NCBI GenBank assembly: GCA_002347655.1
Contig: DDWR01000020.1
Coordinates: forward strand, 76,155-140,154
Length of the DNA: 64,000 nucleotides
Direction: 5' to 3'
Source: Verrucomicrobia bacterium UBA2281
GTDB lineage: Bacteria; Verrucomicrobiota; Kiritimatiellia; CAIQIC01; Lenti-01
The translations under genes were made by a program, and so were the position numbers. This document shows positions 33,461 to 64,000 of the stretch, in pieces (the stretch's first letter is position 1; each line of letters opens with the position of its first letter). Under the pieces are notes generated by a model, which was given only the letters and a program-made list of their open reading frames with translations, searched no databases and was not told where the DNA came from.

Positions 33461-33816
33461 GGCGGTTTTTCCAAAAAATCGCAACAAATGACCTGTTCGG
33501 GGCTGAAAACGGCTCCATTCGGCTCTGAAAAGCTCTCCAACGGCGGAAATTTCATCGAAAACGGATCAATTTTCGTTCTGCGCGCCCAAAATTAGCGGAA
33601 AGAGCCCTCTTGCGCGCCTCTGTTAAGCTGAAATTGCAGAAAACTCCTTAAAAATCGCCCTAAAACGGCCCAAAGGGCCCGAAGTCTTAATCAAAACCAC
33701 ACACGAATATAATCTATATTTAATTGTGCATGATTTGCGCACATTCCTGTGGGAGAATATGATGTCGTTATCAATTGAAGAGAGTTTCGCCGTCTGCAAC
33801 AGGTTGCGCGGAAAGA
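33461..33816 (+). promoter_or_regulatory. unusually AT-rich 350-bp intergenic region; putative promoter/regulatory region of the giant gene
   Basis: Abrupt drop in GC (ttccaaaaaatcgcaacaaatg.., ..aatataatctatatttaattgtgcatgatttgcgcaca..). Contains direct repeats gctgaaaacggctcc / ctctgaaaagctctcc and an imperfect palindrome tgtgcatgatttgcgcaca just upstream of the start. Confidence 0.3.
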
Positions 33817-45575: not shown

Positions 45576-46810
45576 GCCCGGCCCTTCCGCCCGCCGGGCC
45601 GTCCGGCGCTGAAATGAACCTGCTGTGCGCCTGCGCGAGTCCGGCCTATGCCGCGCAAACGGCGGAGTTCTTTGACCGCGGCGGCTCGGTTTCCTGGCCC
45701 CGGTTCGTGGCCTTGGCGACCAACCACCACTTGCTGCCGCTGGTCCACCGCGCGCTCAAAGCCGTTCCGGAACGCGTGCCGGCCCAGTGGTTGGCCCGGT
45801 TGCGGGAATCGCAGACCGCCATCGCGGCCCATAACCTCCGGGCGTGCGCCACGTTGCGGCGGCTGCAGAAACGGTTGGAAGCGGATGGAAACCGGCTGGT
45901 CCCCGTCAAGGGGCCGGCCTTGGCGCTGCTGGCCTTTGGCGACGTCGCGCTGCGCCAGTTCGAGGATCTGGATCTGATCGTGCGCCGGGCCGAGCTGCTG
46001 CGGGTCGTCGCCATCCTCGAACAGGAAGGTTTCCGTCTGCGGGAACTGGCCGCCGGCGTCGATCGCGCCCGCTATCTGGAAACGCTGCAAAACTGGTCGC
46101 TGGAAAAGCCGGGCTTTCCCCCGCTCGATCTCAAGCCGGTGCTCATTTCCCATGCGCTGTGCGGGCCGGCTTCCGCCGATTTCATGGCGGCCGCTTGCCG
46201 CCAAATTCCAAACGCCGCGTTTCCTGGCCTGTCGGCTCCCGGTCCGGCCGAGATGCTGCTGGCGGTCTGCCTCGATGGGGCCAACGAAATGTGGATCAAG
46301 CTTTCGGCGGTGGCCGACGTCGGGGCGTTGATCGCGAAGCATGCGGACGTGGACTGGGCGCGGTATTTGGCCGAAGCCAAACGCCTAGGGCACCGGCGCA
46401 GCCTGCTGGTCGGGGCGGCCCTTGCCGAAGACCTGCTGGGCGCGGTTCTGCCGGCGGCCTTTCGTGAAGGCCTTCGCAACGACCCGGCGGCCCGGCGATT
46501 GGCGGAGCAGGTGGCCGCCCGCCTGCGGTCCGCGGCGCCCCGGCAGAACCTTGCTTTTCGCCAGAGCGTGTTTGCGCTTCGGACGCGGGAACGGTTCCGC
46601 GATCGGTGGCGGTTCCTCCGGCGGCTGCTGTTCGTGCCGGGCGCCTATGAATTCACCCGTTGGCCTTGGCCGCGCGCGCTGCAGCCGCTGTATTCGCTGG
46701 TCCGGCCGCTTCGATTGGCCTGGACCGTCGCGGTGCGCGGGGGCCGGGCCGATCGATTGACGGTTTTGCCGGCGCATGCGAAATTGGCGCCCGGCGGAAG
46801 CAACCCATGA
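45572..46810 (+). CDS. nucleotidyltransferase-family protein (NTP_transf_5 / PF14907-like, the kind associated with lasso-peptide and HprK-related peptide-modification loci)
   Basis: ATGA overlap at 45572. ..LVPVKGPALALLAFGDVALRQFEDLDLIV.. (nucleotidyltransferase core). 412 aa. Confidence 0.55.
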   Translation: MSPALPPAGPSGAEMNLLCACASPAYAAQTAEFFDRGGSVSWPRFVALATNHHLLPLVHRALKAVPERVPAQWLARLRESQTAIAAHNLRACATLRRLQKRLEADGNRLVPVKGPALALLAFGDVALRQFEDLDLIVRRAELLRVVAILEQEGFRLRELAAGVDRARYLETLQNWSLEKPGFPPLDLKPVLISHALCGPASADFMAAACRQIPNAAFPGLSAPGPAEMLLAVCLDGANEMWIKLSAVADVGALIAKHADVDWARYLAEAKRLGHRRSLLVGAALAEDLLGAVLPAAFREGLRNDPAARRLAEQVAARLRSAAPRQNLAFRQSVFALRTRERFRDRWRFLRRLLFVPGAYEFTRWPWPRALQPLYSLVRPLRLAWTVAVRGGRADRLTVLPAHAKLAPGGSNP

Positions 46811-48606
46811 ATACGGCGAAGAAACGATGGCACCATCTGGCCCAGGCAACCGGACTGGTCTGGCGCAGCGCGCGCCCGTGGACGCTCTTGCAAGGAGGGG
46901 TGGTCGTGGCGCAGGGCTTGTTGCCCGTGGCCTCGCTCTATTTGATCCGCCAGGTCGTCGATGCCGTTGGCCGGTTTCTCGCCCAGGCGCCCGGCGACAA
47001 GGATCCCGGGCCGTTGCTGGCGTTGTTGCCGTGGGTGGGCGGGGTGGTGGTGGTCGGCTGGATCCTGCGGGCCGGTTCGGGGATCGTCGCCGAAGCGCAG
47101 GCCGAAGCCGTCGCCGACCACGTGCAGGGTGCCCTGCAGAAGAAATCCGCCGAAATCGATCTGGCCTACCACGAAACGGCGGCCTGGCACGACCAGATGC
47201 GCTTGGCGCAGTCCGAAGCCATGACGCGCCCCGTCGGCATCGTGCGCAATCTGACGCAACTGGGCAGCGGGGTGCTGGTTTTGGGATCGGTCGTCGGCGT
47301 TTTGGGGCTGTCGCAGGGATTCCTGCTGCCGGTGCTCTTGGCGGCAGCGCTGCCGGGCGCCGGGGCCCGGATCTGGAATTCGCGCCGTTGGCATGCCTGG
47401 CGGGTGGCGCATAGCCCGGCGGAACGGCAAGCCGGCTATCTGCACTTGCTGCTGACGTCGTTTCCGTTCGCGAAAGAGATCCGCCTGCTGGGAACCGCCG
47501 GCGAATGGCGTCGCCGGTTCGGCGCGGTCCGCGCCGAACTCCGCCGGAGCCGCCTGGCTTTCGGCCGCCGCCGCGCGGCCATCGAGATCGCCGCGGACGG
47601 GGTCTCGGCGGTCGCCATCTTGGGCGGTTTGGGACTGATCTATCTGCGGATTTCGGGGAATGCGATGACCTTGGGCGATCTGGCGATGCTGTACGGCGGG
47701 TTCCAGAAAGGCAAATCCGCCTTCGCGGGCGTGCTGGGCAGCCTGGCGGCGTTGTATGAGGACGCCTTGTTCATCGGCCACTTCTACGATTTCCTGAACT
47801 TGCCGCATCAGGTCCGTTCACCGGCCGAGCCAAAACCCGTGCCCCGCCGGATCGTGCAAGGTTTCCGGCTGGAGCACGTTTCGTTCCGGTATCCGGGGTG
47901 CGATCGCGATGCGCTGCAAGACGTCACGGCCGAGATCCGCGTGGGCGAACAAGTGGCGCTGGTGGGGGAAAACGGTTCGGGCAAAACGACGCTGGTGAAA
48001 CTGCTGTGCCGCCTGTACGACCCGACCGCGGGCCGGATCCTGCTGGACGGCGTGGATCTGCGCGAGTTCGCGCTGGAGGATTTGCGCACCGCGTTCAGCG
48101 TTCTGTTCCAGGATTTCGGCCGCTACCAGATGACGGCCGAGGAAAACGTGCGCTGGGGGGACGTCGCGGTGCCGGCGGGCGATCCGCGGATCGCGGAGGC
48201 CGTGCGCCGGGGCGGCGCCGAGGCGGTCGTCGCGCAGCTGCCCCAAGGCCTGCAAACCCAGCTGGGGCGTTTGTTCAAGGGCGGCCTGGAGCTCAGCGAG
48301 GGCCAATGGCAGCGGCTGGCCCTGGCCCGCGCATTCCTCCGCGCCGCGCCGATCCTGATGTTGGACGAACCGACCAGTTCCCTCGACGCCAAGGCGGAGC
48401 GGGAATTGCTGGCAACGGTGCTGGCCGGCAGCCAGGGCAAGACCACGGTCATCGTGAGCCATCGGCTCTCGACCGTCCAAGCGGCCAGCCGGATCCTGGT
48501 CTTGGCCGACGGGCGCCTGGCGGAGACCGGTACCCATGCGGAACTGTTGCGGGCCGGCGGGGCCTATCCGGCGCTGTTTGCCCTGCACGCGCCGGATTCG
48601 GCCTAG
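46807..48606 (+). CDS. ABC exporter, fused permease plus ATPase (type I exporter, RiPP/lipid-exporter-like)
   Basis: ATGA overlap at 46807. 6-TM N-terminal domain, Walker A (GENGSGKTT), signature (LSEGQWQRLALARA), Walker B (ILMLDEPTSSLD), H-loop (VIVSHRL). Confidence 0.8.
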   Translation: MNTAKKRWHHLAQATGLVWRSARPWTLLQGGVVVAQGLLPVASLYLIRQVVDAVGRFLAQAPGDKDPGPLLALLPWVGGVVVVGWILRAGSGIVAEAQAEAVADHVQGALQKKSAEIDLAYHETAAWHDQMRLAQSEAMTRPVGIVRNLTQLGSGVLVLGSVVGVLGLSQGFLLPVLLAAALPGAGARIWNSRRWHAWRVAHSPAERQAGYLHLLLTSFPFAKEIRLLGTAGEWRRRFGAVRAELRRSRLAFGRRRAAIEIAADGVSAVAILGGLGLIYLRISGNAMTLGDLAMLYGGFQKGKSAFAGVLGSLAALYEDALFIGHFYDFLNLPHQVRSPAEPKPVPRRIVQGFRLEHVSFRYPGCDRDALQDVTAEIRVGEQVALVGENGSGKTTLVKLLCRLYDPTAGRILLDGVDLREFALEDLRTAFSVLFQDFGRYQMTAEENVRWGDVAVPAGDPRIAEAVRRGGAEAVVAQLPQGLQTQLGRLFKGGLELSEGQWQRLALARAFLRAAPILMLDEPTSSLDAKAERELLATVLAGSQGKTTVIVSHRLSTVQAASRILVLADGRLAETGTHAELLRAGGAYPALFALHAPDSA

Positions 48607-48678
48607 TTGCCTGCACGTAATTCCATTTTAACAGGAGCATCGTTGACATTTAAGCCGGACAGATGTCAGATAACCCAT

Positions 48679-50010
48679 ATGCGCAATTGGATCCAGACCC
48701 TGCGCTTCCGGGGGGCGTTTTGTGCCGGTTGCTTGGCGGTTTCGGCCTGGGCCGGCCCAGGCAACGGCATCAACGTCGCGTCCTGGGTGTTGAGTCCTTA
48801 TTTGGAATTGAATCTGACCGACGATTCGAACGTCTACAAGGACGGCACGAACGTGATCTCCGACGTGTTCTTCGAGCCGGAGCTGGGCTTGCGCTTCAGC
48901 TCCTCCTCGGAAACCAATACCTTCCTGATCAAGGGCAACCTGTTTTTGTCGGACCGGACCTACGACACCGAAAGCAACCGCGATTTCATGACTTATGGGG
49001 ATCACTTGACCCTGCAACTGGGCAACGGCCGCAAATCCCTGCTCGAAGTGATCCAGAGCTACCGCTTTTTGGACGACAACGACCGGCATGCGTCGGACAT
49101 CGAATCGTCGCGCCTCTCCGGCGAGATGGTGGAAGACAGCAACGCGCTGGATCTGGAGCGCGAACTGCACCAGTTGGGCGGTCTCCTGTCGCGGCGCATG
49201 TCCGACAAGCTGCAGCTGGCGTTGTCCTATCGCTATTCCGGCGTCCATTATCCGAACGAAACCCACGACCGCCTGCGCCGCAAGCAGGAAGAATACGTGC
49301 CGGAAGGCCTGGATCTGGACGGGCACATCTGGCAGTTGGAGGGCGCGCTGGGGCTGACGGACAAGACCGACGCCCTGCTGACGCTGCGCCAAGGCTTGCA
49401 ATACCAGGAGAAAACGGACGATCCGGCCGAGCTGACGACGATCCGGCTGGGCTTGCAGACGCAAGGGGCCCAGAAGCTGGTCTATCACGTCGGCGCGGGA
49501 TTGGAATACTATGCCCGGCCCTCCCAGACGCGGTTCGCCGATGCGGACGTCGACGAAAACGACGTCCAGATCGACGAAGAAGGCGTGCAGAGCGACAACG
49601 ACCAGATCTACTTCAGTTTCAATGCCGCGGCGGATTGGTTCATCACGGAAAAGCTGACCTTCCGCATCGGCGGCTACAACGGCACGGAGTTCTCGTCGTT
49701 CTACTCGCGCAACGGCATGGAATACGTCAGCGCCTGGGCCGGCCTGGGGTACCGCTGGAAACCGAGCTGGATTTTCTCCATGCGCGGGATCTATCGCCAC
49801 GACGACTATCTGGATCCGGTCACGCACGAAGGGGTGACGAAGGACCGCAAAGACGTGCGCGTCGAAGGTCACGGGCGCATCGATTACATCGCGCCGGGCA
49901 ACTTCCTGCGGGTCTATTTCGAGGCGGTCTACGACGAGGTGGATTCCAACTTCGATTTCGTGGACTACGTCGATCGGCGCCTCATCCTGGGCGCCATCAT
50001 CCAGTACTAG
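48679..50010 (+). CDS. outer-membrane beta-barrel protein (putative porin/export channel)
   Basis: Signal-peptide-like N-terminus (MRNWIQTLRFRGAFCAGCLAVSAWA). Alternating amphipathic beta-strands. C-terminal aromatic residue (..LILGAIIQY), typical of OMP barrels. Confidence 0.5.
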   Translation: MRNWIQTLRFRGAFCAGCLAVSAWAGPGNGINVASWVLSPYLELNLTDDSNVYKDGTNVISDVFFEPELGLRFSSSSETNTFLIKGNLFLSDRTYDTESNRDFMTYGDHLTLQLGNGRKSLLEVIQSYRFLDDNDRHASDIESSRLSGEMVEDSNALDLERELHQLGGLLSRRMSDKLQLALSYRYSGVHYPNETHDRLRRKQEEYVPEGLDLDGHIWQLEGALGLTDKTDALLTLRQGLQYQEKTDDPAELTTIRLGLQTQGAQKLVYHVGAGLEYYARPSQTRFADADVDENDVQIDEEGVQSDNDQIYFSFNAAADWFITEKLTFRIGGYNGTEFSSFYSRNGMEYVSAWAGLGYRWKPSWIFSMRGIYRHDDYLDPVTHEGVTKDRKDVRVEGHGRIDYIAPGNFLRVYFEAVYDEVDSNFDFVDYVDRRLILGAIIQY

Positions 50011-53525: not shown

Positions 53526-53766
53526 GGCGAACCCATCCTTTCCGGATGTTCCCAAATCAATATAGGCGACCGGCGGGTTTCGCACAAGGCAAAAGATCGG
53601 GATCGCGCTCGGCGAACCGCCCAAAAAAATCGGCCCGGTGAAGCGTTTTTGCGTTGAGCTTTCATTCCGTTGCCGTTACCTTGTTAACAGAATTGGCCAG
53701 TGCTTTGTGGTCTGGCGGTTGGCTTGGGAATCGGCGAGGCGGAAAATCCGCTCCGGGAGTGCGCAA

Positions 53767-56700
53767 ATGAAGTCTGGGAATGTCGTGCGGCGGGGATGTC
53801 AACGGGTGCTGGTCGGACTGTGTCTGGCGGGGTGGCTCGTGCCGGGCTCCGTGCGGGGCGAAGCGATGTTGCAGTTCTTCAACGCGAGTTGGAACGAAAT
53901 CGCCGACAAGGTGCCCGAACTGGCGGAAGCGGGCTATTCGTCGCTCTGGCTGCCGCCGCCGGCCAAGGCCAACGGCGGCTATTCGGTGGGCTACGACCTG
54001 TTCGATCCGTTCGACCTGGGCAACAAGAACCAGCGCGGCACGATCGCCACGCGTTACGGCACCAAGGCGGATCTGCACAACCTGATCGAGCTGTGCCACC
54101 GCTTCGGCATCCGGATCTACTTCGACAACATCATGAACCACCGCGCCTACGACGTGCCGGGCTACAACGAAACCACGCCGATCGACGTCTTCCCCGGGAT
54201 GGTGGCCGAGGATTTCCACCTGCGCACCACCTCCGACGGCTTCTACCGCAAATGGGACAACACCCGCGACTGGCAGGACGCCTGGCAGGTGATGCATCTG
54301 GGGCTGTCGGACCTGCTGGACATCGCCCACGAGACGCCCAACCAGAATTTCGGCCCCACCGAAGGCAGTTGGCACGAGAAACCCTCCATCGTGCGCCATC
54401 CGCAGAACCCGGAATACTACGATTGGCACCCCACGCTGGGCTGGGTCGGCTTCAACAGCACGTCGATCACCGAATCGGTCATCGCCGCGAATCCCGATTT
54501 CTTCAAGGAAGACGTCGGCGCCTACCTGTGCCGCAACGCGCGCTGGATGCTGGAGACCACGAAAGCCGACGGGTTCCGCCTCGACGCCGTCAAGCACGTG
54601 CCGGACTACTTCTTCGGGGCGTTCGGGGACGACGCCAGCGACGCCGGCTATCTGGGCCAGATCCAGTGGCAGTTCAACATGACCCATGGCTACAGCGATT
54701 GGAGCAACCACCGCGACAGCAACTTCAGCACGGAAATCCCGCGCGACGACGCGCTGCTCTTCGGCGAACATCTCGGCCAGCCGCCCGGCTACGGCGGCTA
54801 TATCTCCGCCGGGATGCGGCTGGTGGACAACGATCTGCGCAACCAGCTCAACTGGCGCTTCAGCGCGGGCGATCTGTGGGGCTACGACAACGCCGGCGCG
54901 GGCGGCTTCGATTCCGCCGTGGGCGTGATGCATGCCCAGAGCCACGACAACGACTACGTGGACCGCAAGGAACTCCAGCACGCCTACTACTTCCTGCGCG
55001 GCGGGCTTGGCCTGCTCTACACCGACGGCAACCGCCACGCGGAAACCCTCTCCGGCAGCGGCGGCGCTTTCCCGCGCTGGGCCAGCACCGCGTTCCTCGG
55101 CCAGTGGGGCCAGCCCCAAATCCCCGAACTCCTGAAGATCCACGAGAACGGCGCGCGCTACACCCATCACGGCATGGGCACGCACTGGGACGGCGCGGTC
55201 ATCGCCTGGGAGCGCGGCGGGACCTTCCCCTGGAACACCTTCCTGACGGTGTTCAATTCGAAGTGGGCGGATTGGCGCTCCATTCCGACCCAGGGCACGT
55301 TCCCGGACGGCGCCTACCTCTACAACTACGTCCGCGCCTACCAGTGCTACTATACCGGCAGCGGGCCGGCCGCCGACTACGTCTACGCCAGCGATCTGTA
55401 CAACGTCAACCAGCCCCCCAACAGCTATTCGGTCTGGGGCTACAAGAATCCCGACCCGAGCGGCCTCTGGTCCGGCGACGCGATTTCGATCACCGACGAC
55501 GGCCAGCTGGCCGAAACCATCTCCGTGGACCGCCGGGACGGGCCCGACGGCGACGCGGAGTTCAACCCCTACAACTATTCCAACCGCGGCTTTCCCGACG
55601 GCGCCACGCCGACGCCCTACAGCTATCGCCAGTCCATCCCGCGCATTACCAAGGGCACCAACGTCGTCTTCACGGCCCGCGTGGACGGCTCGGCCGACAA
55701 CGTCCTGATGCGCCTCGACGGCGGCATGGACCTGAACGGGGCCACCCACGCGCTGGGCGACCTGCGCGACAACCCGCCGGCGCTGAGCCACGACATGTAT
55801 TTAGGCTTCGAAGGCGTCGATTTCGTCCAGCGCATCTGGCCGGAAAAATTCGCGGCGACGGATTCCGCGCGCGCCAAGATCGCCTCGCCGGGCGCGGAGA
55901 CCTACGTCGCCACGCTCAACACCGCCTTCACCACGAACCTCTCGACGGGCAGCAACGACTGGGACGGCACCTACACGGTGTCCTGGATCTGGCACGATCC
56001 CAACGGCACCCAGGACGGCGATCGCGCGGGCAACGCGCAGTTCTGGCCGCCGGTCACCAATGCGGGCGGCTCCACGATCTACGTCGGCGTCAAGACCCCG
56101 AAGGTCGCCGGCAACCGCGTCCACCTCTATTACACCACCAACGGCACGGCTTGGCCCGAGGGCGCCGGCGGCAAGGGCGCCAATGCCGATACCCGCGTGG
56201 TCGAAGGGGCCTGGGTGGGCGACGGCAGCGATTCGTCCGATTGGTGGGAACTCCAAGTCCCCGCCATGCCCGCCGGGACGGTCTTCCGCTACAAGATCGG
56301 TTCGGCGCGCCAACAGGGCTACGACGGCAACGGGTGGGACGTCGTCTGGCCGGGCAGCGCCGCCGAGGTCGCCCGGAAGGTCCAGATGCTGGGCGAGTGG
56401 GAAACGGACGCCCAGAACCTGAAGACCAAATCCTACCACCGGCACAACAACTACAACAGCTGGACGACCAACGGGCTTCCGGACGGCTTCCACCTGCTGA
56501 CGGCGCGGGCGTTCCTGGACCGCGACGATGGCGCCCCGGTCTTCAACACCTTCCGCCAGACGTTCTACCTGGACACGGAAACCCCGCAGGGCTACGTGCA
56601 GTATCCGGCGGCCGACGGCGAGACCTACTACGGCAGCGAGTACGGCTTCATCGTGCGCACCGATCCGACCGCGCGCGAGGTGTGGTATCATATCGACGAC

Positions 56701-59700
56701 AGCAACGCCGACAACGATGGCCCCGGCAACGGCATGGTGTCCGGCAAGGTCGTCTGGGCGCAGGCCTCGACCGTGGGGGCGTGGACCGAGGACATGGCCG
56801 AGGATACGGCCTTCCCGAAGATCTGGCGCTTCAACTACGACCGCATCCCGGCCACGGGCACCGCCACGATCCGCGTCCGCCTGCGCGAATGGTCCAGTTC
56901 CGCCACCAACGCCTGGTCGGCCACCAACCCGACGAACGACAACGCTGCGGCCGGCCACTTCACGCAACTGGAGCGCACCCTGATCACCCGCGGCCCGGCG
57001 GAAGAATTTTTCTACGACTGGCCCGAGACGGACGGCGCGATGGTGGAGGCCGGCTGGCAACTGCGCATCCACTACACCGCCAGCATGGCCGCCGGCCTTT
57101 CGGACCAGGAAATCTACGACCGCATCAAGGTCTACGTGAACGCGTCCGCCAACGGCTCGACCAACCGCGGCGAACTGGTGGATGCCGCCGGGTTGAACTT
57201 CACGCACCAGTGGAACTGGGGCGCGGCCGGCGAAGGCCTCAACGTCCTGGGCTTCGACATGCCCAACGTCTACAACGGCCAGGACGGGTGGCTCTACGGC
57301 GTGCGCGTCGAGTTCACCAACAGCAACGGCTACGGCGTTTTCGACAAGGCCGCCGTGCGCCTCGTGCAGCACCGCGGGCCCCTGCTGCCCACGCTGATCA
57401 TCACCACGCCGCCCGAAACCGACAGCGACGGCGCGAAATACGTCATCCGGATGGAAGACGTGCCGGCCAGCGTGCTGGCCACCAATCCGGCCCTGCGGCA
57501 AACGCCCATCGTGGTGCTGACCGACGCCAACGCCACCAATCTGGCCATCCAGTTCAACAGCCCGACGGACTACGTGGGCGCGGTGGTCCTCGACAACGTC
57601 GTCACCAACGGGGACAGCCTGACCTGGACCCACGTCTGGACCGTCACCAACGCCGGCGCCTACCGCTTCACGGCCACCGTCTGGGCCGATACCAACGGCA
57701 CCGAACTGAGTTCCGCCGTCAACTCGGCCACGCGCAACGCCACCGTCCAGTTCCGCGAACTCGTCGCCACGACCAACGCGGCCGATGCGGATTGGGACGA
57801 CGACGGCATCCTCAACACCAACGAGGTTTCCGCCTGCCCGCTGCCGGACAGCGCCGCCGAATACTGGACGCAGACCGAAGTCTTCAACTACTTCGCCCGC
57901 GGCAAGTCCATGGAGAACAGCCCCGACACCGACGGCGACGGCCTGCCCGACGGCCTCGAACTGGGTTACCGTGGGCCCGCCGCCGGCACCGACGAGGCCA
58001 CCGACACCGACGGCGACGGCTACCCGAACTTCCGGCCCGACCTCGATCCGCCGTTCTACAACACCTTGGACAATCTCGGCACCGTGAAGGGCATCGACGG
58101 CGCCGGCACCGGCGCCAGCCGCACCAAGCTCGCGCAAGGCACGACCACCGATCCGACGAATCCCGACACCGACTACGACGGGCTGCCCGACGGCGTCGAG
58201 GACGCCAACCGCAACGGGTGGGTCGACGGCGACGGCGCCAGCCTGCCGACCAATTGGAGCCCGTTCCTCGAGCGCAACTGGCCCGACGGCCTCATCAACA
58301 GCGGCGAGACCTGGCTGGAAACCTCCCCGAACCTCGCCGACAGCGACCGCGACGGCCTCAGCGACGGCTACGGCGAGGACAAGGACTTCAACGGCCGCAT
58401 CGCCGGCGACGTCAACGACAACCGGATCTGGGACGCCGGCGAAACCTGGACGGAAACCGATCCGCTGAATCCCGATACCGACGGCGACGGCCTGCCCGAC
58501 GGCTGGGAAGTCCGCTACGGCCTCGACCCCCTCGACGCCACGGGCCTCAACGGGGCCGACGGCAACCCCGACGGCGACACCTATCTCGACGTGGAAAGCG
58601 TCGAACAGCCCTACGTCAACCTGCTCGAATACCAGAACGGCACCAACCCCCGCGAAGCGGACTCCCTCGAGAATCCCGGCGGCGAAGGCTCCATCGTCGT
58701 CGGCCAGGGCGCGATTCTCGGCACGGTCAACGACGTCGACTACTACCGCGAATTCATGGATTGGACCTTGGCCGACCTGCTCGCGCTGGACAACTACAAC
58801 CAGGGCGGCAATTCCGCCGACATCTACCGCCGCGGCGACGGATTCGACAGCTCCCGCGACATGGTGGCGTTCTATTTCCGCGACGGCGGCGCGACCGGCG
58901 CCGGCGGCGACGGCAAGCTCTACTTCCGCGTGGACTTCGACGACCTGAAGGCCAATGCCGAGCAAAGCGCGCTCAACGTCTACGTCGCCATCAACTTCGG
59001 CACCTACGGGGAAGGCGGCGAGGTCAACCTGCCCGACCAGGTCAACGCCGGCAGCCTGATGCAGTGGAACGCCTGCGTCGGCGTGTACGACGGCGGCAGC
59101 GGCGTGCTCTACGTGGACGGCAACAAGAACAACAACACGACCGACATCGGCGGCGATCTCGCCGCCGCCGGCGTGGCCGCCGTCCCGGGCGGGATCGTGG
59201 GCACCTATTTCGACTCCACCCTCGACGCCGTGGCGTGGAGCATCGACCGCGCCGCCCTGGTGGCCGCGGGGTGGGGCGGCGATCCGGACACCCTCCTGTT
59301 CCAGGTCTACACCACCAGCGACTTCACCGGCGACGACGGCGGCAGCGGCGACAAGGGCGGCCTCAACGACTTCACCGACACCATCGGCGACGACTGGCTG
59401 TGCTCCGACTACTACCAGGACTACAACTACGTCGCCGCCAACGGCTACTACCGGTACTGCATCGGCCGCACCGCCGGCGGCTACGTGTTCAACAACGTCG
59501 GCCAGCACGCCAAGGTGGCCTTGCTCGCGCACGGCAACCAGGCCGTCGAGCCCGGCGCGACCATCCAGAACATCGTGGACAACGGCAGCGGCGCGGGCTA
59601 CCAGCGCCCCGTCAAGATCCACAACATCTATTCCAACGCGGCGCTCAACCTGCACATCACGCCGACGCTGGCCATGTCCCTGGAATGGGCCAAGGTCGGC

Positions 59701-62226
59701 ACCTCCAACACGTGGTATTCCGGGCCGGGGCTCAACGAGCAGATCCGCGCCGGCGTGGCGGCGGGCACCTTCCGCCTGCTCGGCAGCACCTTCTCCGACC
59801 ATATCCTCCCGTACTTCGACGCGGCCTACAACCGCGCCAACGTGGAACTCGCCGCCGACGTCCTCAACGACGTCTACGGCGGGTCGCCCGCCAGCGGCGT
59901 GGTCTCCACCAACGTGTTCTGGATTCCCGAGCGCGTCGCCGACGTCGAGACCCTCAAGCAGGTCAAGACCAACCTGGGCTTCCGCGCCACCATCCTCGAC
60001 CAGACGCCCCATCTGCTGGAGTGGTACGGCCGCGAGGAAGCCCTCGGCAACAACGCCTACAAGATCAACCGCCTGTGGCTCGAGCATGCCGGCGGCCCTT
60101 GGCCGTCCGTCGATGCCTTCGTCATCGCCACCGCCGCCAACAACTACCGCTACGTGAACACCGACGGCGGCTTGCCGACGGAACTGCGCCAGCTCTTCAA
60201 CCGGCGCGCGCGCTCCGGCGCCGACCAGATCTCCACCATCTTCTACATGTGGGAAGACCTCTCCGCCAACGCCAACGCCGACGCCTACGACGCCAACCTG
60301 CGCTGGATGGCCAACCATCCCTGGATCCAGGTCGTCGCCCTCGACGATGCCCTCGACGGCGAAACCGTCGAACGCAACCTGACCGCCGCCGCCGGCCCGC
60401 AGGCCCAGGACTGGGTGCACCACGCTTCCAACCAGGACTACGACAACTGGTTCTTCGGCTCCGGCCGCCACGAAGGCCTCGCGCCGAAGCTGTTCGAGGT
60501 GCGCCTCGGCACCAATCTGCCCTCCGGCACGCCGTACGGCTCCATGACCAACGGCATCCTCTCCAACGCGTGGAAGACCGTGCGCGGGCTCACCAACGCG
60601 ACCGTCCGGCGTCTCGCCCAGCAGGCGCTCTTCGCCTCCACGTTCGAAACCGCCTTCCACAACGAGAGCAACGGCGACCTGACCCGCTGGAGCTTCGGCG
60701 AATACGCCGCGCCCGCCACGGACTGGCAAGGCCTGCAGGGCTTCGCCTGGAAGGCGCAGGGCCAGACCCGCATGGCCGCGCTCTACGGCGCCGTGGACGA
60801 CTGGGCCAACCGCACGCTTTCTTCCGTCGAGGTGGTTTCCGCCGACGTCGATCTCGACGGCGAGAACGAATATGTCCTGCGCAACGACGCGGTCATGGCT
60901 CTCTTCGAACGCAGCGGCGGCCGGATGGTCGGCGCCTGGCACAAGAACGGCACCAACGTCGTCCAGATGATCGGCAACTTCGTCTCCATGCCCGATTCCG
61001 GCACCGAAGACGAAGGCACCGACAACGTCAGCGGCGGCGGGACGGGGGCCTACCGCACCTCCGCCCTCAAGGATTGGTGGAACGGCTCCGCCAACCGCGT
61101 CAACGATCTCTACGCCTTCTCCGCCGGCGCCAACTCCGTCACCTTCTCCAACGCGGGCATCGTCAAGACCGTCGCGCTGGCCAATGCCGCCACCAACGTC
61201 TTCGCGGTGAACTACGCCATGCCCGGCCAGACGCTCTACGTCCGCAACGGCCTCTCGCCCGATCTCGACGCCCTGCTGCGCACCGGCCAGCGCAACCTGG
61301 CCGAGGAAGCCACCGGCTCTTCCGCGCTGGCGGTGTCCGCCATCCGGCCCGCCGACGGCCTCGCCAGCACCGTCAAGCTCGCCGTCGCCACCGGCGCCAT
61401 CAATACGGCCGCCACGGACATGTCCAACACCTGGAACACCGTCAACCTGCGCAACCAGGCCCAGACCCGGCAGGTGGAACTCGTCGGCACCAACGCGCTG
61501 GCCTTCACTCTCGAACTGGCGTCTTCCGCGACCGGCGCCGACGAACCGCCGGTCCTCGAGTTCACGCCGTCCGGCCCGTACGTGATGCCCGTGGGCGCGA
61601 CCTCGTCCTTCACCGTCGCGGCCATCGACTACGACAGCCCCGCCACCACGCTGACGGCTTCCAATCTGCCGGTCGGCGGCTCCAAGCTGGCCGCGTTCGA
61701 CGCCAACACCGGCGCGTTCTCCTGGCACGTGACCGCCCTCGGCCAGGGCGGCCGCACCAACGACCAGGTCTACACCAACACGGTCTTCACCGCCTTCGAC
61801 GGCACCAGTTCCACCGCCGCCACGGTCGTCATCACGGTTCCGTGGGACGCCGACGCCGACGGCATGCCCGACGACTGGGAACTGCTCAAGTTCGGCACCG
61901 TCACCAATGCCGCCGCCGGCGATTGGGACGGCGACGGCTTCCCCAACTACAGCGAATGGGTCGCCAACACCGATCCCGACGCTCCCGGCAGCTACGTCGG
62001 CTGGGAAAACCGGATGGTGCTTTCGCCCAACTCCGTCGCGCTGACCTTCCAGTCCATCGTCGGCCGCACCTACAAGATCGAAGGCCTCGACGAACTGTTG
62101 CCCGGCACCAACTGGCAGCAATTGGACATCGTCGTCAGCACCAACGACCCGATGACCTGGGTGGACACCAACGCCTGGCCGGACGTCCGCAACTACCGCA
62201 TCAAGATCCCGCTGGCCCAGCCCTGA
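53767..62226 (+). CDS. giant secreted protein (about 2,820 aa): signal peptide, N-terminal GH13 alpha-amylase-family catalytic domain, long beta-rich region, thrombospondin-type-3-like Ca-binding repeats, and the same C-terminal module as the first giant protein
   Basis: ATG 53767 (MKSGNVVRRGCQRVLVGLCLAGWLVPGSVRG). GH13 regions (GYSSLWLPPP, FDPFDLG, GTKADLHNLIELCHRFGIRIYFDNIMNHR, GFRLDAVKH). Repeated DTDGDGLPDG / NPDTDYDGLPDG / DSDRDGLSDG motifs. C-terminal module is alignable with 44080-44436. Confidence 0.8.
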   Translation: MKSGNVVRRGCQRVLVGLCLAGWLVPGSVRGEAMLQFFNASWNEIADKVPELAEAGYSSLWLPPPAKANGGYSVGYDLFDPFDLGNKNQRGTIATRYGTKADLHNLIELCHRFGIRIYFDNIMNHRAYDVPGYNETTPIDVFPGMVAEDFHLRTTSDGFYRKWDNTRDWQDAWQVMHLGLSDLLDIAHETPNQNFGPTEGSWHEKPSIVRHPQNPEYYDWHPTLGWVGFNSTSITESVIAANPDFFKEDVGAYLCRNARWMLETTKADGFRLDAVKHVPDYFFGAFGDDASDAGYLGQIQWQFNMTHGYSDWSNHRDSNFSTEIPRDDALLFGEHLGQPPGYGGYISAGMRLVDNDLRNQLNWRFSAGDLWGYDNAGAGGFDSAVGVMHAQSHDNDYVDRKELQHAYYFLRGGLGLLYTDGNRHAETLSGSGGAFPRWASTAFLGQWGQPQIPELLKIHENGARYTHHGMGTHWDGAVIAWERGGTFPWNTFLTVFNSKWADWRSIPTQGTFPDGAYLYNYVRAYQCYYTGSGPAADYVYASDLYNVNQPPNSYSVWGYKNPDPSGLWSGDAISITDDGQLAETISVDRRDGPDGDAEFNPYNYSNRGFPDGATPTPYSYRQSIPRITKGTNVVFTARVDGSADNVLMRLDGGMDLNGATHALGDLRDNPPALSHDMYLGFEGVDFVQRIWPEKFAATDSARAKIASPGAETYVATLNTAFTTNLSTGSNDWDGTYTVSWIWHDPNGTQDGDRAGNAQFWPPVTNAGGSTIYVGVKTPKVAGNRVHLYYTTNGTAWPEGAGGKGANADTRVVEGAWVGDGSDSSDWWELQVPAMPAGTVFRYKIGSARQQGYDGNGWDVVWPGSAAEVARKVQMLGEWETDAQNLKTKSYHRHNNYNSWTTNGLPDGFHLLTARAFLDRDDGAPVFNTFRQTFYLDTETPQGYVQYPAADGETYYGSEYGFIVRTDPTAREVWYHIDDSNADNDGPGNGMVSGKVVWAQASTVGAWTEDMAEDTAFPKIWRFNYDRIPATGTATIRVRLREWSSSATNAWSATNPTNDNAAAGHFTQLERTLITRGPAEEFFYDWPETDGAMVEAGWQLRIHYTASMAAGLSDQEIYDRIKVYVNASANGSTNRGELVDAAGLNFTHQWNWGAAGEGLNVLGFDMPNVYNGQDGWLYGVRVEFTNSNGYGVFDKAAVRLVQHRGPLLPTLIITTPPETDSDGAKYVIRMEDVPASVLATNPALRQTPIVVLTDANATNLAIQFNSPTDYVGAVVLDNVVTNGDSLTWTHVWTVTNAGAYRFTATVWADTNGTELSSAVNSATRNATVQFRELVATTNAADADWDDDGILNTNEVSACPLPDSAAEYWTQTEVFNYFARGKSMENSPDTDGDGLPDGLELGYRGPAAGTDEATDTDGDGYPNFRPDLDPPFYNTLDNLGTVKGIDGAGTGASRTKLAQGTTTDPTNPDTDYDGLPDGVEDANRNGWVDGDGASLPTNWSPFLERNWPDGLINSGETWLETSPNLADSDRDGLSDGYGEDKDFNGRIAGDVNDNRIWDAGETWTETDPLNPDTDGDGLPDGWEVRYGLDPLDATGLNGADGNPDGDTYLDVESVEQPYVNLLEYQNGTNPREADSLENPGGEGSIVVGQGAILGTVNDVDYYREFMDWTLADLLALDNYNQGGNSADIYRRGDGFDSSRDMVAFYFRDGGATGAGGDGKLYFRVDFDDLKANAEQSALNVYVAINFGTYGEGGEVNLPDQVNAGSLMQWNACVGVYDGGSGVLYVDGNKNNNTTDIGGDLAAAGVAAVPGGIVGTYFDSTLDAVAWSIDRAALVAAGWGGDPDTLLFQVYTTSDFTGDDGGSGDKGGLNDFTDTIGDDWLCSDYYQDYNYVAANGYYRYCIGRTAGGYVFNNVGQHAKVALLAHGNQAVEPGATIQNIVDNGSGAGYQRPVKIHNIYSNAALNLHITPTLAMSLEWAKVGTSNTWYSGPGLNEQIRAGVAAGTFRLLGSTFSDHILPYFDAAYNRANVELAADVLNDVYGGSPASGVVSTNVFWIPERVADVETLKQVKTNLGFRATILDQTPHLLEWYGREEALGNNAYKINRLWLEHAGGPWPSVDAFVIATAANNYRYVNTDGGLPTELRQLFNRRARSGADQISTIFYMWEDLSANANADAYDANLRWMANHPWIQVVALDDALDGETVERNLTAAAGPQAQDWVHHASNQDYDNWFFGSGRHEGLAPKLFEVRLGTNLPSGTPYGSMTNGILSNAWKTVRGLTNATVRRLAQQALFASTFETAFHNESNGDLTRWSFGEYAAPATDWQGLQGFAWKAQGQTRMAALYGAVDDWANRTLSSVEVVSADVDLDGENEYVLRNDAVMALFERSGGRMVGAWHKNGTNVVQMIGNFVSMPDSGTEDEGTDNVSGGGTGAYRTSALKDWWNGSANRVNDLYAFSAGANSVTFSNAGIVKTVALANAATNVFAVNYAMPGQTLYVRNGLSPDLDALLRTGQRNLAEEATGSSALAVSAIRPADGLASTVKLAVATGAINTAATDMSNTWNTVNLRNQAQTRQVELVGTNALAFTLELASSATGADEPPVLEFTPSGPYVMPVGATSSFTVAAIDYDSPATTLTASNLPVGGSKLAAFDANTGAFSWHVTALGQGGRTNDQVYTNTVFTAFDGTSSTAATVVITVPWDADADGMPDDWELLKFGTVTNAAAGDWDGDGFPNYSEWVANTDPDAPGSYVGWENRMVLSPNSVALTFQSIVGRTYKIEGLDELLPGTNWQQLDIVVSTNDPMTWVDTNAWPDVRNYRIKIPLAQP

Positions 62227-62299
62227 TCCGGTCCGCGCCCGCCGGCGGCCGGGGCCCGGCTGCCCGGCCTGCCGCTCCGCCCATGGACGGGCGCGCTGG

Positions 62300-62335
62300 C
62301 CCGGCGCGCCGGGATTCCGTTTCATTCCGCTCTTG
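62300..62335 (+). terminator. possible intrinsic terminator after the giant gene: GC palindrome CCCGGCGCGCCGGG followed by a T-rich stretch (attccgtttcattcc)
   Basis: Perfect 14-nt GC palindrome read directly. The T-tract is interrupted, so the call is weak. Confidence 0.25.
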
Positions 62336-62364
62336 CGCCGGGCAGGGGCGGGGCGTATGTTGGT

Positions 62365-62376
62365 GAACGGAAGTTC
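62365..62376 (+). promoter_or_regulatory. putative LexA operator (SOS box of the GAAC-N4-GTTC type) immediately upstream of umuD
   Basis: ggtGAACggaaGTTCagtcATG; perfect dyad 4 nt before the umuD start codon. Confidence 0.4.
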
Positions 62377-62380
62377 AGTC

Positions 62381-62833
62381 ATGCCCCGCGCCGCTCCATG
62401 CCGTTTGCCCGCCGGAAGCGTCCGTCCCGTGGCCGTCGGGTCGCCGCCGCTCTTGCTGCGCCGCTATGCCTCGCGCATCGCGGCGGGCTTCCCGTCGCCG
62501 GCGGACGACCATCTGGAAAGCCCTCTGGACCTGAACGCGCATCTGGTGGCGCATCCCGCCGCGACGTTCGTGGTCAAGGTGCAGGGCGACTCGATGTCCG
62601 GCGCGGGCATCCGCGACGGCGACCTGCTGGTGGTCGATCGCGCGCGCGAGGCGAAGTCCGGCGCCATCGTCGTGGCCGTGGTGGACGGCGCGCTGACGGT
62701 CAAGCGCCTGCGCGTCGGCCGCGACGGCGTGCGGCTGGAGCCGGAGAATCCGGCCTACCGGCCCATCCGGGTGCGCGAAGGCGAAGAACTGGTGATCTGG
62801 GGCGTCGTGGCGCATGCCATCCGCTCCTATTGA
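62381..62833 (+). CDS. umuD: translesion DNA polymerase V accessory subunit UmuD (S24 LexA-like autopeptidase)
   Basis: ..[65 protein letters not shown].. aligns with the E. coli UmuD Ser/Lys dyad region. The track ORF starts at 62333; I chose ATG 62381 after the LexA-like box. Confidence 0.75.
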
Positions 62834-62849
62834 AACGGGGCGGAGCGCC

Positions 62850-64000
62850 ATGTTCGCGCTGGTGGATTGCAACAACTTCTACGCCTCGTGCGAGCGCGTG
62901 TTCCGGCCCGCGCTGGAAGGCCGGCCCATCGTCGTGCTGTCGAACAACGACGGTTGCGTCGTCGCCCGCAGCGCCGAAGCCAAGGCGCAGGGCATTCCGA
63001 TGGCCAAGCCGTGGTTCCAGCTCGAGCGCGGCCTGCGCGGTCCGCCCGTCGCCGTCTTTTCCTCCAACTACGCGCTCTACGGCGACCTGTCCCGGCGCGT
63101 CATGCAGGTCCTCGCGGACTTCTGCCCGCGGCTGGAAATCTATTCCATCGACGAGTGCTTTCTGGATTTGTCCGGCGTGGCCGGCGACCGCACGGCGCTG
63201 GGGCTGGACATGGCGCGCCGCGTGAAGCGCTGGACGGGCATTCCGGTTTCCGTGGGCATCGCCCCCACGAAGACGCTGGCGAAGGTCGCGAACCGCCTGG
63301 CCAAGCGCGGCCAGAGCCCGGCGGGACCGGTGCTGGATTGGGCGCGCCTGCCGGATCCGCGCGCGACGCTGGCCGCGCTGGCGCCGGAAGACGTCTGGGG
63401 CATCTCTTCGCGCCTGGGCGAGCGGGTGCGGCGCCTGGGCCTCGCCAGCGCGCTCGCGCTGGCCGAAGCCGATCCCCGCGTCCTGCGGCGGGCGGGCGGG
63501 GTGGTGCTGGAGCGCCTCGGCCGCGAACTGGGCGGCACCGCCTGTCTCGCGCTGGAAGACGTGGCGCCGCCGCGGAAGCAAATCATGGTCTCGCGCACGT
63601 TCGGCGCGCGCCTCGCGCGCGCGGAAGACGTGCAAGCCGCCGTCGCGGCGTTCGCCGCGCGCGCCGGCGAAAAACTCCGCCGCCAGCACCGGCGCACGGC
63701 GGCCGTGACGACGTTCCTGCAGACCGATCCCTTCGATCGCGAAGGCCCGCGCTACTTCAACGGGGCGACGGTCGCGATGGAACGCCCCACGGCCGATTCC
63801 GGCAAACTCGTGCGCGCCGCGCAGCAGGGGCTCGCGCGCATCTTCCGGCCGGGCCTGGCCTACCGCAAGGCGGGCGTGCTGCTGCCGGATCTCGAACCCG
63901 CCGGCATCGAACAGGGCCTGCTGTTTTCGGCGGAGCCCGCCGACGACGCGCGCACCGCGCGGCGGATGGCATGCCTCGACCGCCTCAACCAGGCGCCCGC
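62850..64000 (+). CDS. umuC: 3'-truncated CDS; Y-family DNA polymerase UmuC (Pol V catalytic subunit)
   Basis: Translating from ATG 62850 gives [51 protein letters not shown].., the canonical UmuC/DinB N-terminus. It runs off the window end, so it is not in the ORF track. Confidence 0.8.

What the first reader, a model, noticed from the sequence alone, without database searches (positions are those of the whole stretch)
53767..62226. Second giant protein: N-terminal GH13 alpha-amylase catalytic domain fused to about 2,300 aa of beta-rich and TSP3-like Ca-binding repeats
The first about 450 aa contain the canonical alpha-amylase regions (GYDLFDPFDLG, GTKADL..LIELCHRFGIRIYFDNIMNHR, GFRLDAVKH). 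They are followed by a very long extension with thrombospondin-type-3/dockerin-like DxDxDG motifs.

A surface-tethered giant amylase suggests alpha-glucan foraging. Alternatively it could remodel the organism's own alpha-glucan-containing matrix, given the adjacent EPS locus.
Basis: partly seen in the sequence, partly recalled or inferred. Interest (0 to 1): 0.6.

Follow-up and report, generated by a model that had tools for sequence, protein, structure and literature searches.

The report
Giant secreted amylase with second GH57-like module

Summary
The ORF at 53767-62226 (+) is real. It encodes 2,819 aa with a signal peptide and an N-terminal GH13 domain.

GH13 module. D273, E334 and D394, plus H125, R271, H277 and H393, are invariant in 118-121 of 121 homologues. 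The assignment of E334 needed a profile-profile alignment, because a ~32-aa insertion misled simpler alignments.

The extension is not only repeats. In order it holds:
- about 7 beta-sandwich domains;
- a TSP3 calcium-binding stretch;
- a LamG-like domain;
- a ~700-aa GH57-type module. It matches PF03065, and its AlphaFold2 model best matches Thermococcus litoralis 4-alpha-glucanotransferase (Foldseek E 3e-19). It keeps the nucleophile Glu (E2055), but the canonical Asp proton donor position holds M/N/R;
- a C-terminal TSP3 + beta-sandwich module, also found on the neighbouring giant protease.

Conservation. The GH13...GH57-like fusion is present in 56 of 56 testable species-level genomes, all of them MAGs labelled Kiritimatiellia, Verrucomicrobiota or Lentisphaerae. 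No neighbouring gene is conserved, so a link to the EPS locus is unsupported.

Most likely function: an extracellular alpha-glucan foraging enzyme whose second module binds the glucan or acts by a non-canonical mechanism. Surface tethering is inferred, not shown. It is a new variant of a known kind; interest is moderate.

The parts
53767..62226 (+). Complete gene: 2,819 codons plus a TGA stop
   Evidence: The identical protein is called on 6 metagenome contigs.
53767..53859 (+). Signal peptide, aa 1-31, with predicted cleavage ...SVRG|EAMLQ (inferred)
   Evidence: Basic N-region, hydrophobic core, and a conserved A/G-x-G/A|EA(M/I/V)LQ(Y/F)FN junction in homologues. There is no lipobox (read from the sequence).
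53866..55116 (+). GH13 catalytic (beta/alpha)8 domain with a long domain B (aa 34-450). Key codons: H125, R271, D273 (54583-54585), H277, E334 (54766-54768), H393, D394 (54946-54948). A ~32-aa insertion lies at aa ~295-326, before beta5.
55117..55461 (+). GH13 domain-C-like beta domain (aa 451-565)
   Evidence: hhalign against BLA runs into the BLA C domain. Beta strands in the AF2 model.
55462..57771 (+). Array of about 7 beta-sandwich (Ig-like) domains (aa 566-1335)
   Evidence: AF2 model with pLDDT 79.9. Foldseek gives only generic tandem Ig, cadherin and macroglobulin-type arrays. No Pfam CBM matched. Conserved across the family.
57772..58686 (+). TSP3-type calcium-binding repeat region (aa 1336-1640) with six DxDxDG motifs
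   Evidence: Pfam TSP3_bac. NCBIfam CglD and MtsD partial matches. Motif list. 25% of columns are invariant.
58687..59406 (+). LamG/ConA-like beta-sandwich (aa 1641-1880)
   Evidence: Weak Laminin_G_3 match (E 1e-4, below the cut-off). All-beta, high pLDDT in the AF2 model.
59419..60801 (+). GH57-type (beta/alpha)7 barrel plus helical region (aa 1885-2345). HGNQ at aa 1922-1925. W-x-P-E-R-V with E2055 (59929-59931). F-Y-M-W-E-D with M2161 (60247-60249) at the position of the canonical Asp donor and E2163 (60253-60255).
60802..61536 (+). C-terminal beta domain of the GH57-type module (aa 2346-2590). DVDLDGENEYVL aligns with TLGT DVDFDGRAEIMV.
61537..61836 (+). Variable Ig-like domain (aa 2591-2690)
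   Evidence: Low conservation and occupancy. He_PIG (PF05345) is precomputed in some homologues.
61837..62223 (+). Two TSP3 motifs plus a C-terminal ~85-aa beta-sandwich module (aa 2691-2819)
62296..62313 (+). Terminator-like GC hairpin about 70 nt after the stop codon
   Evidence: 2 overlapping predictions, against 0.2 expected.

Best explanation
The gene encodes a Sec-exported, 2,819-aa multi-modular protein acting on alpha-glucans. It belongs to a family found in uncultured Kiritimatiellia and related PVC bacteria.

What is shown:
- The N-terminal GH13 module has a complete, invariant catalytic apparatus. It is closest to the liquefying-type alpha-amylases (BLA, Pyrococcus woesei, H. orenii AmyB).
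- A second module has the fold and domain order of a GH57 4-alpha-glucanotransferase. It keeps the nucleophile Glu, but at the canonical Asp proton-donor position it holds M/N/R/A.
- The two modules always occur together.

What is inferred:
- The GH13 head cuts alpha-1,4-glucans (starch or glycogen) outside the cell.
- The ~7 beta-sandwich domains and the calcium-binding TSP3 segment act as a long, calcium-stiffened spacer.
- The LamG + GH57-like unit holds or positions the glucan chain. Less likely, it rearranges the chain with a non-canonical acid such as E2163.
- The C-terminal TSP3 + beta-sandwich module, shared with the neighbouring giant protease, keeps the protein at the cell surface.
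For: Gene and export.
- The frame and the signal peptide are established.

GH13 module.
- It matches PF00128, PRK09441 and solved alpha-amylases.
- D273, E334, D394, H125, R271, H277 and H393 are invariant in 118-121 of 121 homologues.
- A profile-profile alignment to a 61-sequence GH13_5 profile (Prob 99.85%, E 1e-30) puts FGE334H on BLA E261 and RLVDNDL on the FDVPL strand.

GH57-type module.
- 12 of 12 diverse members match PF03065, best E 4e-11.
- The AF2 model has pLDDT 79 and pTM 0.83 and shows seven barrel strands.
- The best Foldseek match is TLGT (1K1W/1K1X), E 3e-19 over ~770 columns. GH38 and other GH57 structures follow.
- hhalign of the family against the TLGT family gives Prob 91% over TLGT residues 3-658.
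- E2055 and E2163 are invariant; the donor position is M71/N18/R13/A5/P5/G2. D214 is invariant in 105 TLGT homologues.

Family and context.
- The fusion is present in 56 of 56 testable loci.
- The whole length is conserved at 43-88% identity.
- The C-terminal module is shared with the C25-protease giant. It also sits at the extreme C-terminus of unrelated proteins of many sizes.
Against: - No enzyme activity, localisation or calcium binding was measured.
- The GH13 acid/base assignment rests on alignment and invariance. Single-sequence and HMM alignments instead placed the reference catalytic Glu on the non-acidic segment GYLGQIQW.
- The register at the GH57 donor position has a posterior of only ~0.6. 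An invariant Glu and a conserved Asp/Glu lie 2-3 residues later, so the module may be active after all.
- Its 71 invariant columns fit an enzyme at least as well as a binding module.
- No recognised starch-binding CBM was detected.
- No known anchoring signal was found.
Confidence: 0.55

Rival explanations
1. It is a true dual enzyme. Both modules are catalytic: GH13 hydrolyses alpha-1,4 bonds, and the GH57-type module is a working retaining transglycosylase, debrancher or amylase. In this reading it uses E2055 as nucleophile and E2163 (or D/E2164) as acid/base in place of the canonical Asp.
For: - The nucleophile motif W-x-P-E-R-V is invariant, and W2162-E2163 are invariant and followed by a conserved acidic residue.
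- The module has many invariant polar residues.
- The alignment posterior at CSR-4 is only ~0.6.
- For one GH57 specificity, the proton donor proposed from sequence does not overlap the template Asp (PMC6037648).
Against: Of eight TLGT residues that are invariant in 105 homologues, four are changed here: H13 to N, E79 to variable, D214 to M/N/R, D354 to variable. M2161 is the last residue of strand beta7 in the model, which is where the donor should sit. GH57 'like' groups lacking catalytic residues are judged probably not to act as typical GH57 enzymes (PMC6037648).
Confidence: 0.3
2. It remodels the organism's own extracellular alpha-glucan or EPS matrix rather than foraging.
For: In this window, EPS-type and export genes lie upstream: NTP_transf_5, an ABC ATPase and a beta-barrel porin. 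4-alpha-glucanotransferase-like folds can build or rearrange glucans (general knowledge).
Against: No neighbouring gene is conserved across 48 related loci. The context of homologue P0061 is unrelated. The gene has a terminator-like hairpin after its stop, and its upstream neighbours are on the opposite strand. No alpha-glucan synthase was seen next to it.
Confidence: 0.1
3. It is mainly an adhesin or structural surface fibre, in which both glycosidase-like modules serve only as lectins.
For: Its size, the Ig-like array, TSP3 repeats like those of the myxobacterial surface proteins CglD and MtsD, and a C-terminal module shared with another giant surface-type protein.
Against: All seven canonical GH13 catalytic and substrate-binding residues are invariant over 43-88% identity. 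A pure lectin would not be expected to keep them.
Confidence: 0.05

Closest known systems
Liquefying-type GH13 alpha-amylases: Bacillus licheniformis BLA (1BLI/1VJS), Pyrococcus woesei (1MWO), Halothermothrix orenii AmyB (3BC9). The subfamily labels GH13_5 and GH13_7 are from my own knowledge of CAZy.
   Same: The GYxxxWLPPxxK...GYDxxDxxDLGxxxQxGTxxTxYGT signature, conserved regions I-IV, the Asp/Glu/Asp triad, and a domain-C-like beta domain.
   Different: Only the first ~90 aa align strongly. Domain B is longer, and a ~32-aa insertion precedes beta5. The enzyme is followed by ~2,250 further residues.
Thermococcus litoralis 4-alpha-glucanotransferase (GH57; PDB 1K1W/1K1X/1K1Y)
   Same: Same fold and domain order: (beta/alpha)7 barrel, helical region, C-terminal beta domain. 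Shared nucleophile motif W-x-x-E-R-V, the Glu of the D-x-E motif, and the H and Q of CSR-1.
   Different: About 12-17% identity, and no hit by sequence profile against PDB. The donor Asp, H13, E79 and D354 are not conserved. It is preceded by a LamG-like domain and embedded in a giant exported protein. TLGT itself is a ~650-aa archaeal enzyme.
GH57 '4-alpha-glucanotransferase-like' proteins (Martinovicova & Janecek 2018, PMC6037648)
   Same: Bacterial GH57 relatives of 4-alpha-glucanotransferases that lack one or both catalytic residues.
   Different: Those average 623 aa in that survey (Table 1).
Multi-catalytic or cell-surface amylases of gut bacteria, such as the two-GH13-domain amylopullulanases of Bifidobacterium and Gardnerella, SusG, and the Ruminococcus bromii amylosome (from my own knowledge; Gardnerella preprint listed)
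   Same: Extracellular, modular starch or glycogen degraders that combine catalytic and binding modules.
   Different: Those combine GH13 with GH13 and recognised CBMs, dockerins, LPXTG motifs or lipid anchors. Here GH13 is combined with a GH57-type module, no recognised CBM or anchor was found, and the protein is 2-3 times larger.
TSP3-repeat surface proteins CglD and MtsD of Myxococcus (NCBIfam NF033765, NF047639)
   Same: Similar runs of DxDxDG calcium-binding repeats (E 5e-17 over aa 1335-1557).
   Different: The match covers only the repeat region and is far below the model cut-offs (61 against 400 bits). It does not indicate a related function.

Membership tests
GH13 (alpha-amylase family) | Catalytic domain homologous to the GH13 (beta/alpha)8 barrel | tested here: met
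   PF00128 scores 43-50 bits against a cut-off of 22. hhalign against a GH13_5 profile gives Prob 99.85%, E 1e-30. Solved alpha-amylases match at E down to 1e-32.
GH13 (alpha-amylase family) | Nucleophile Asp in CSR-II (GxRxDxxKH) and transition-state Asp with His in CSR-IV (xHD) | tested here: met
   DGFRLDAVKH has D273 in 118 of 118 sequences with a residue there. SHD has H393 and D394 in 121 of 121. It aligns to 3bc9 CSR-II and to 1mwo NHDTD.
GH13 (alpha-amylase family) | General acid/base Glu at the end of beta5 (CSR-III) | tested here: met
   F-G-E334-H is invariant and aligns with BLA E261 in the profile-profile alignment. Caveat: single-sequence alignments chose another register, and no 3D model of this domain was made.
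GH13 (alpha-amylase family) | CAZy/dbCAN subfamily assignment | not testable with these tools
   No dbCAN or CAZy library was available. The nearest solved relatives are 3bc9, 1mwo and the BLA group.
GH13 (alpha-amylase family) | Alpha-glucan hydrolysing activity | not testable with these tools
   Needs enzymology.
GH57 | (beta/alpha)7 barrel followed by a helical region (for the TLGT type, also a C-terminal beta domain) | tested here: met
   The AF2 model has seven barrel strands. The best Foldseek hits are 1K1X/1K1W (E 3e-19), followed by 7e1y, 3p0b and 4cmr.
GH57 | Sequence match to the family model PF03065 above its gathering score | tested here: met
   The window protein scores 22.2-22.5 bits against 21.2, which is marginal. 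12 of 12 family members match, best E 4e-11. The match is precomputed in most homologues.
GH57 | Catalytic nucleophile Glu on beta4 (CSR-3) | tested here: met
   W2052-x-P-E2055-R-V aligns with TLGT W120-L-T-E123-R-V. E is present in 121 of 121.
GH57 | Proton-donor Asp on beta7 (CSR-4, position 20) | tested here: not met
   The aligned residue is M2161; across the family it is M71/N18/R13/A5/P5/G2 and never D or E. It is the last residue of beta7 in the model. D214 is invariant in 105 TLGT homologues. The alignment posterior is ~0.6, and E2163 and D/E2164 follow.
GH57 | Five conserved sequence regions | tested here: inconclusive
   CSR-1 reads HGNQA against HNHQP. CSR-3 is conserved. CSR-2 (E79), CSR-4 (D213, D214, K217) and CSR-5 (D354, W357) have diverged.
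Bacterial TSP3 repeat (PF18884) | Repeat match above the family cut-off; DxDxDG calcium-binding motif | tested here: met
   28-35 bits against a cut-off of 25, with up to 4 stretches. Eight TSP3-type motifs are listed. Calcium binding itself was not tested.
Dockerin / cellulosome-type anchoring | Match to a dockerin family | tested here: not met
   No dockerin family appears among the Pfam matches at E up to 0.1 (whole protein) or up to 10 (eight segments).
Known surface-anchoring signals (lipoprotein lipobox, PEP-CTERM, T9SS C-terminal domain) | Recognisable sorting motif at the N- or C-terminus | tested here: not met
   No L-x-[GAS]-C lipobox and no C-terminal hydrophobic helix with a basic tail (read from the sequence). 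No Por_Secre_tail match. Only an uncharacterised C-terminal beta-sandwich is present.

The most novel reading that the evidence does not exclude
The GH57-type module is a working enzyme with non-canonical chemistry: a Glu/Glu pair, or a new specificity that would amount to a new GH57 subfamily. Acting in cis with the GH13 head, it would convert extracellular starch or glycogen into rearranged or cyclic alpha-glucans that only this bacterium can import. T. litoralis 4-alpha-glucanotransferase is known to make cycloamylose (my own knowledge). This would be a 'selfish' starch-capture device built into a single giant polypeptide, and specific to Kiritimatiellia.
Probability: 0.12. Interest if true: 0.75.

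Novelty: new variant of a known kind. Interest (0 to 1): 0.55.

Why it matters
GH13 and GH57 are the two main, structurally unrelated alpha-amylase families. They are normally found on separate, mid-sized proteins.

Here one of each is fused in a ~2,800-aa exported protein. The full architecture is kept at 43-88% identity across the family, and relatives were found at 196 loci in species-representative genomes of a poorly cultured lineage that occurs in rumen, digesters and sediments. Such conservation implies strong selection on the whole assembly.

- If the GH57-like module is a pseudo-enzyme, this is a clear natural case of a glycosidase fold reused as a binding or handling module beside an active partner.
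- If it is active, it extends GH57 chemistry beyond the Glu/Asp pair.

Either way, the family is a concrete marker for alpha-glucan use in Kiritimatiellia and could be tested by expressing the modules. Automated pipelines already flag both domains, so the novelty lies in the architecture and the altered active site, not in a new fold.

Tried and rejected
1. Other frames. The 2,888-aa (+) and 2,193-aa (-) ORFs overlapping the gene are shadow ORFs of a 67% GC genome.
2. Sequence-only detection of GH57 in PDB. A 12-sequence profile of the module and the whole-family profile found no GH57 chain. The link needed Pfam, a fold search and profile-profile alignment.
3. Alternative register for the GH13 acid/base. 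HMMER against 3bc9 and hhalign against the single BLA sequence put the reference Glu on GYLGQIQW, which has no acid.
   - I rejected this because a 61-sequence GH13_5 profile aligns FGE334H with E261 at a much higher score (233 against 159).
   - FGEH is invariant, whereas position 299 is variable.
   - The Pfam match extends to residues 336-338 only when FGEH is included.
4. Conserved operon partners. Clustering the flanking ORFs of 48 loci found nothing shared by more than 11 of them. The largest cluster was antisense shadow ORFs.
5. Specific folds in aa 440-1345. Foldseek gave only generic Ig and beta-sandwich arrays, and no CBM family matched.
6. Dockerin and known anchor signals: none found.
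8. Literature. Six searches found no description of a GH13-GH57 fusion or of this family. The papers I opened did not describe one either.
Full report
**The gene**

The window has about 67% G+C, and three very long ORFs overlap at this position. Only 53638/53767-62226 (+) translates into a protein-like sequence. The +1 frame gives Arg/Pro-rich nonsense, and the real frame shows the expected codon-position GC pattern (GC3 0.91).

The ATG at 53767 gives 2,819 aa and matches the N-termini of homologues. The identical protein is called on six metagenome contigs. A GC-rich terminator-like hairpin lies about 70 nt after the stop. The upstream neighbours are on the opposite strand, and the downstream genes are a Peptidase_S24 / Y-family polymerase pair. 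The gene therefore looks monocistronic.

**The GH13 module**

- Pfam PF00128 matches aa 42-338, E 4e-11.
- The NCBIfam PRK09441 alpha-amylase models match with E down to 5e-36.
- Solved alpha-amylases match, best H. orenii AmyB 3bc9, P. woesei 1mwo and the Bacillus liquefying group.
- I aligned the window protein with the 120 best of 795 homologues. D120, N124, H125, R271, D273, K276, H277, F332, G333, E334 and H335 are present in all 118 sequences that have a residue at those positions. S392, H393 and D394 are present in all 121.

One complication concerns the acid/base Glu. HMMER against 3bc9, and hhalign against the single BLA sequence, aligned the reference catalytic Glu with the segment GYLGQIQW, which has no acid. 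I had checked my copy of the BLA sequence against PDB 1vjs, where it matched over all 483 residues apart from two differences. A ~32-aa insertion sits in this region, and either side of it can mimic the beta5 and beta6 motifs.

Three results favour FGE334H as the true CSR-III:
- With a 61-sequence GH13_5 profile the alignment score rose from 159 to 233. ALLFGEH then aligned with BLA EMFTVAEYW (E334 on E261), and GMRLVDNDL with HSVFDVPL. This places the insertion at aa ~295-326, before beta5.
- The Pfam match extends to residues 336-338 only when FGEH is included.
- FGEH is invariant, whereas position 299 is variable.

I therefore take the triad as D273/E334/D394, intact. A residual doubt remains that only a structure would remove.

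**The rest of the protein is not just repeats**

A Pfam scan in segments found Glyco_hydro_57 (PF03065) at aa ~1986-2095, scoring 22.2 bits against a cut-off of 21.2. All 12 diverse family members tested match PF03065, best E 4e-11. Most database homologues carry the precomputed pair PF00128 + PF03065.

An AlphaFold2 model of aa 1640-2600 (26-sequence alignment; pLDDT 79.4, pTM 0.83) shows three parts: an N-terminal beta-sandwich, a seven-stranded alpha/beta barrel with a helical region, and a large C-terminal beta domain. By Foldseek its best PDB matches are T. litoralis 4-alpha-glucanotransferase 1K1X/1K1W (E 3e-19, ~770 columns). Next come GH38 mannosidases, which Foldseek finds similar in fold, and then the GH57 structures 7e1y, 3p0b and 4cmr. 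By sequence the module is too diverged to hit any GH57 chain in PDB.

**Active site of the GH57-type module**

I confirmed that my copy of the TLGT sequence is 100% identical to 1k1w over residues 1-384. I then collected its homologues and ran hhalign between the two family profiles. The result was Prob 91%, E 1e-6, with 574 columns spanning TLGT residues 3-658 (the shorter alignment agrees).

| TLGT residue | Window protein | State in the giant family |
|---|---|---|
| H11 | H1922 | invariant |
| H13 | N1924 | N in 120/121 |
| Q14 | Q1925 | invariant |
| E79 | R2003 | variable |
| W120...E123-R124 | W2052...E2055-R2056 | invariant |
| D214 (proton donor) | M2161 | M71/N18/R13/A5/P5/G2 |
| E216 | E2163 | 120/121 |
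| K217 | D2164 | D or E |
| D354 | G2303 | variable |

In 105 TLGT homologues H11, H13, Q14, E79, E123, D214, E216 and D354 are all invariant or nearly so. M2161 is the last residue of strand beta7 in the model, which is where GH57 places its donor (PMC6037648).

The module therefore meets the fold, Pfam and nucleophile criteria of GH57 but not the Asp-donor criterion. This resembles the '4-alpha-glucanotransferase-like' groups that Martinovicova and Janecek describe as lacking catalytic residues. Two points keep an active, non-canonical enzyme possible: the alignment posterior at this point is only ~0.6, and an invariant Glu plus a conserved acidic residue follow two and three positions later.

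**Other modules**

- aa 440-1345: the GH13 C-like domain plus about seven beta-sandwich domains (pLDDT 79.9). Only generic Ig, cadherin and macroglobulin-type matches were found, and no CBM family matched.
- aa 1336-1640: six DxDxDG motifs, matching TSP3_bac and, partially, the CglD and MtsD models. 25% of its columns are invariant, as many as in the GH13 domain.
- aa 1641-1880: a LamG/ConA-like sandwich, with a weak Laminin_G_3 match.
- aa 2591-2690: a variable Ig-like domain.
- aa 2691-2819: two more TSP3 motifs and an ~85-aa beta-sandwich.

The last module recurs at the C-terminus of the other giant protein of the window (29% identity, E 3e-4). It was also found in 41 representative proteins of 84-3,400 aa, mostly at their extreme C-terminus and sometimes in tandem. 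No dockerin, lipobox, PEP-CTERM-like tail or T9SS tail was found.

**Family and context**

- The 120 best homologues are 2,650-3,390 aa long, 43-88% identical, and conserved along the whole length.
- They are labelled Kiritimatiellae/Kiritimatiellia, or generically Verrucomicrobia, Opitutae, Lentisphaerae or Spartobacteria. Sources name them 'hypothetical protein' or 'alpha-amylase family glycosyl hydrolase'. One JGI record lists both GH57 and alpha-amylase domains.
- A scan of one genome per species found 196 loci. The 80 kept are all MAGs, from rumen, digesters, biofilms and sediments. Several genomes have 2-3 copies.
- In all 56 loci with enough upstream sequence, a GH13 domain lies 4-9 kb upstream of the GH57-like module on the same strand.
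- No flanking gene is shared by more than 11 of 48 loci, and the context of homologue P0061 is unrelated. The EPS-locus idea therefore has no comparative support.

**Mechanism**

- Shown: export signal, a complete GH13 apparatus, a GH57-type fold with an altered active site, obligatory co-occurrence of the two modules, and whole-length conservation.
- Inferred: extracellular endo-cleavage of starch or glycogen by the GH13 head; the beta-sandwich and TSP3 stretch as a calcium-stiffened spacer; the LamG + GH57-like unit as a glucan-holding module or a non-canonical transglycosylating module; and surface retention through the shared C-terminal module.

I put about 0.55 on this picture. The rivals are a dual-enzyme version (0.3), matrix remodelling (0.1) and a purely adhesive role (0.05).

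**Novelty**

Both domains are known families and pipelines already tag them. I found no paper describing a GH13-GH57 fusion or this family. The conserved giant architecture with a donor-less GH57 module is a new variant of a known kind.

**Limits**

- No 3D model of the GH13 domain was made.
- There was no dbCAN library and there are no experiments.

Noticed in passing
window 33775-44436 (+): The 'first giant protein' (3,553 aa) carries many SdrD_B and CarboxypepD_reg repeats, a GEVED domain, a Peptidase_C25 (gingipain-type) domain and five MBG domains. It ends in the same TSP3 + beta-sandwich C-terminal module as the amylase (29% identity, E 3e-4).
   Followed up: partly
window 61969-62223 (aa 2735-2819): The C-terminal ~85-aa beta-sandwich was found in 41 representative proteins of 84-3,400 aa, mostly at their very C-terminus. 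In a few it occurs as 7-12 tandem copies. It may be a sorting or anchoring module of these bacteria; its function is unknown.
   Followed up: partly
window 54649-54744 (aa ~295-326): A ~32-aa insertion in the GH13 domain, between helix alpha4 and strand beta5. Its sequence (GYxGxAQW ... DSVFNTE) mimics the beta5 and beta6 motifs, so single-sequence alignments place the catalytic Glu wrongly. It could be a partial internal duplication.
   Followed up: partly
L018, L021, L023 (MAG RGIG6903); L019, L020 (RGIG6649); L041, L073; L005, L038; L004, L075: Several genomes carry two or three diverged copies of the giant GH13/GH57-like gene, notably sheep-rumen Kiritimatiellae MAGs.
   Followed up: no
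window 62381-64000 (+): Downstream lie a Peptidase_S24 (UmuD/LexA-like, 150 aa) gene and a Y-family DNA polymerase (IMS, IMS_C) gene, a umuDC-like pair unrelated to the amylase. An Indigoidine_A gene follows in related contigs and also lies near homologue P0061.
   Followed up: no
window 45176-50010 (+): Upstream genes are an NTP_transf_5 family protein, an ABC-transporter ATPase fusion (648 aa) and a BBP2-type beta-barrel porin. ORFs between 50010 and 53624, including the 428/461-aa gene divergent from the amylase, have no Pfam match.
   Followed up: no
window 53700-62366 (+) and 55801-62382 (-): Stop-free ORFs of 2,888 and 2,193 codons overlap the gene in other frames. Antisense shadow ORFs of the same kind formed the largest 'conserved neighbour' cluster in related loci. 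They are a trap for ORF-based annotation of this high-GC lineage.
   Followed up: yes
window 60844-60879 (aa 2360-2371): The DxDxDG-like motif DVDLDGENEYVL is not a TSP3 repeat. It aligns with DVDFDGRAEIMV at the start of the C-terminal beta domain of T. litoralis 4-alpha-glucanotransferase.
   Followed up: yes
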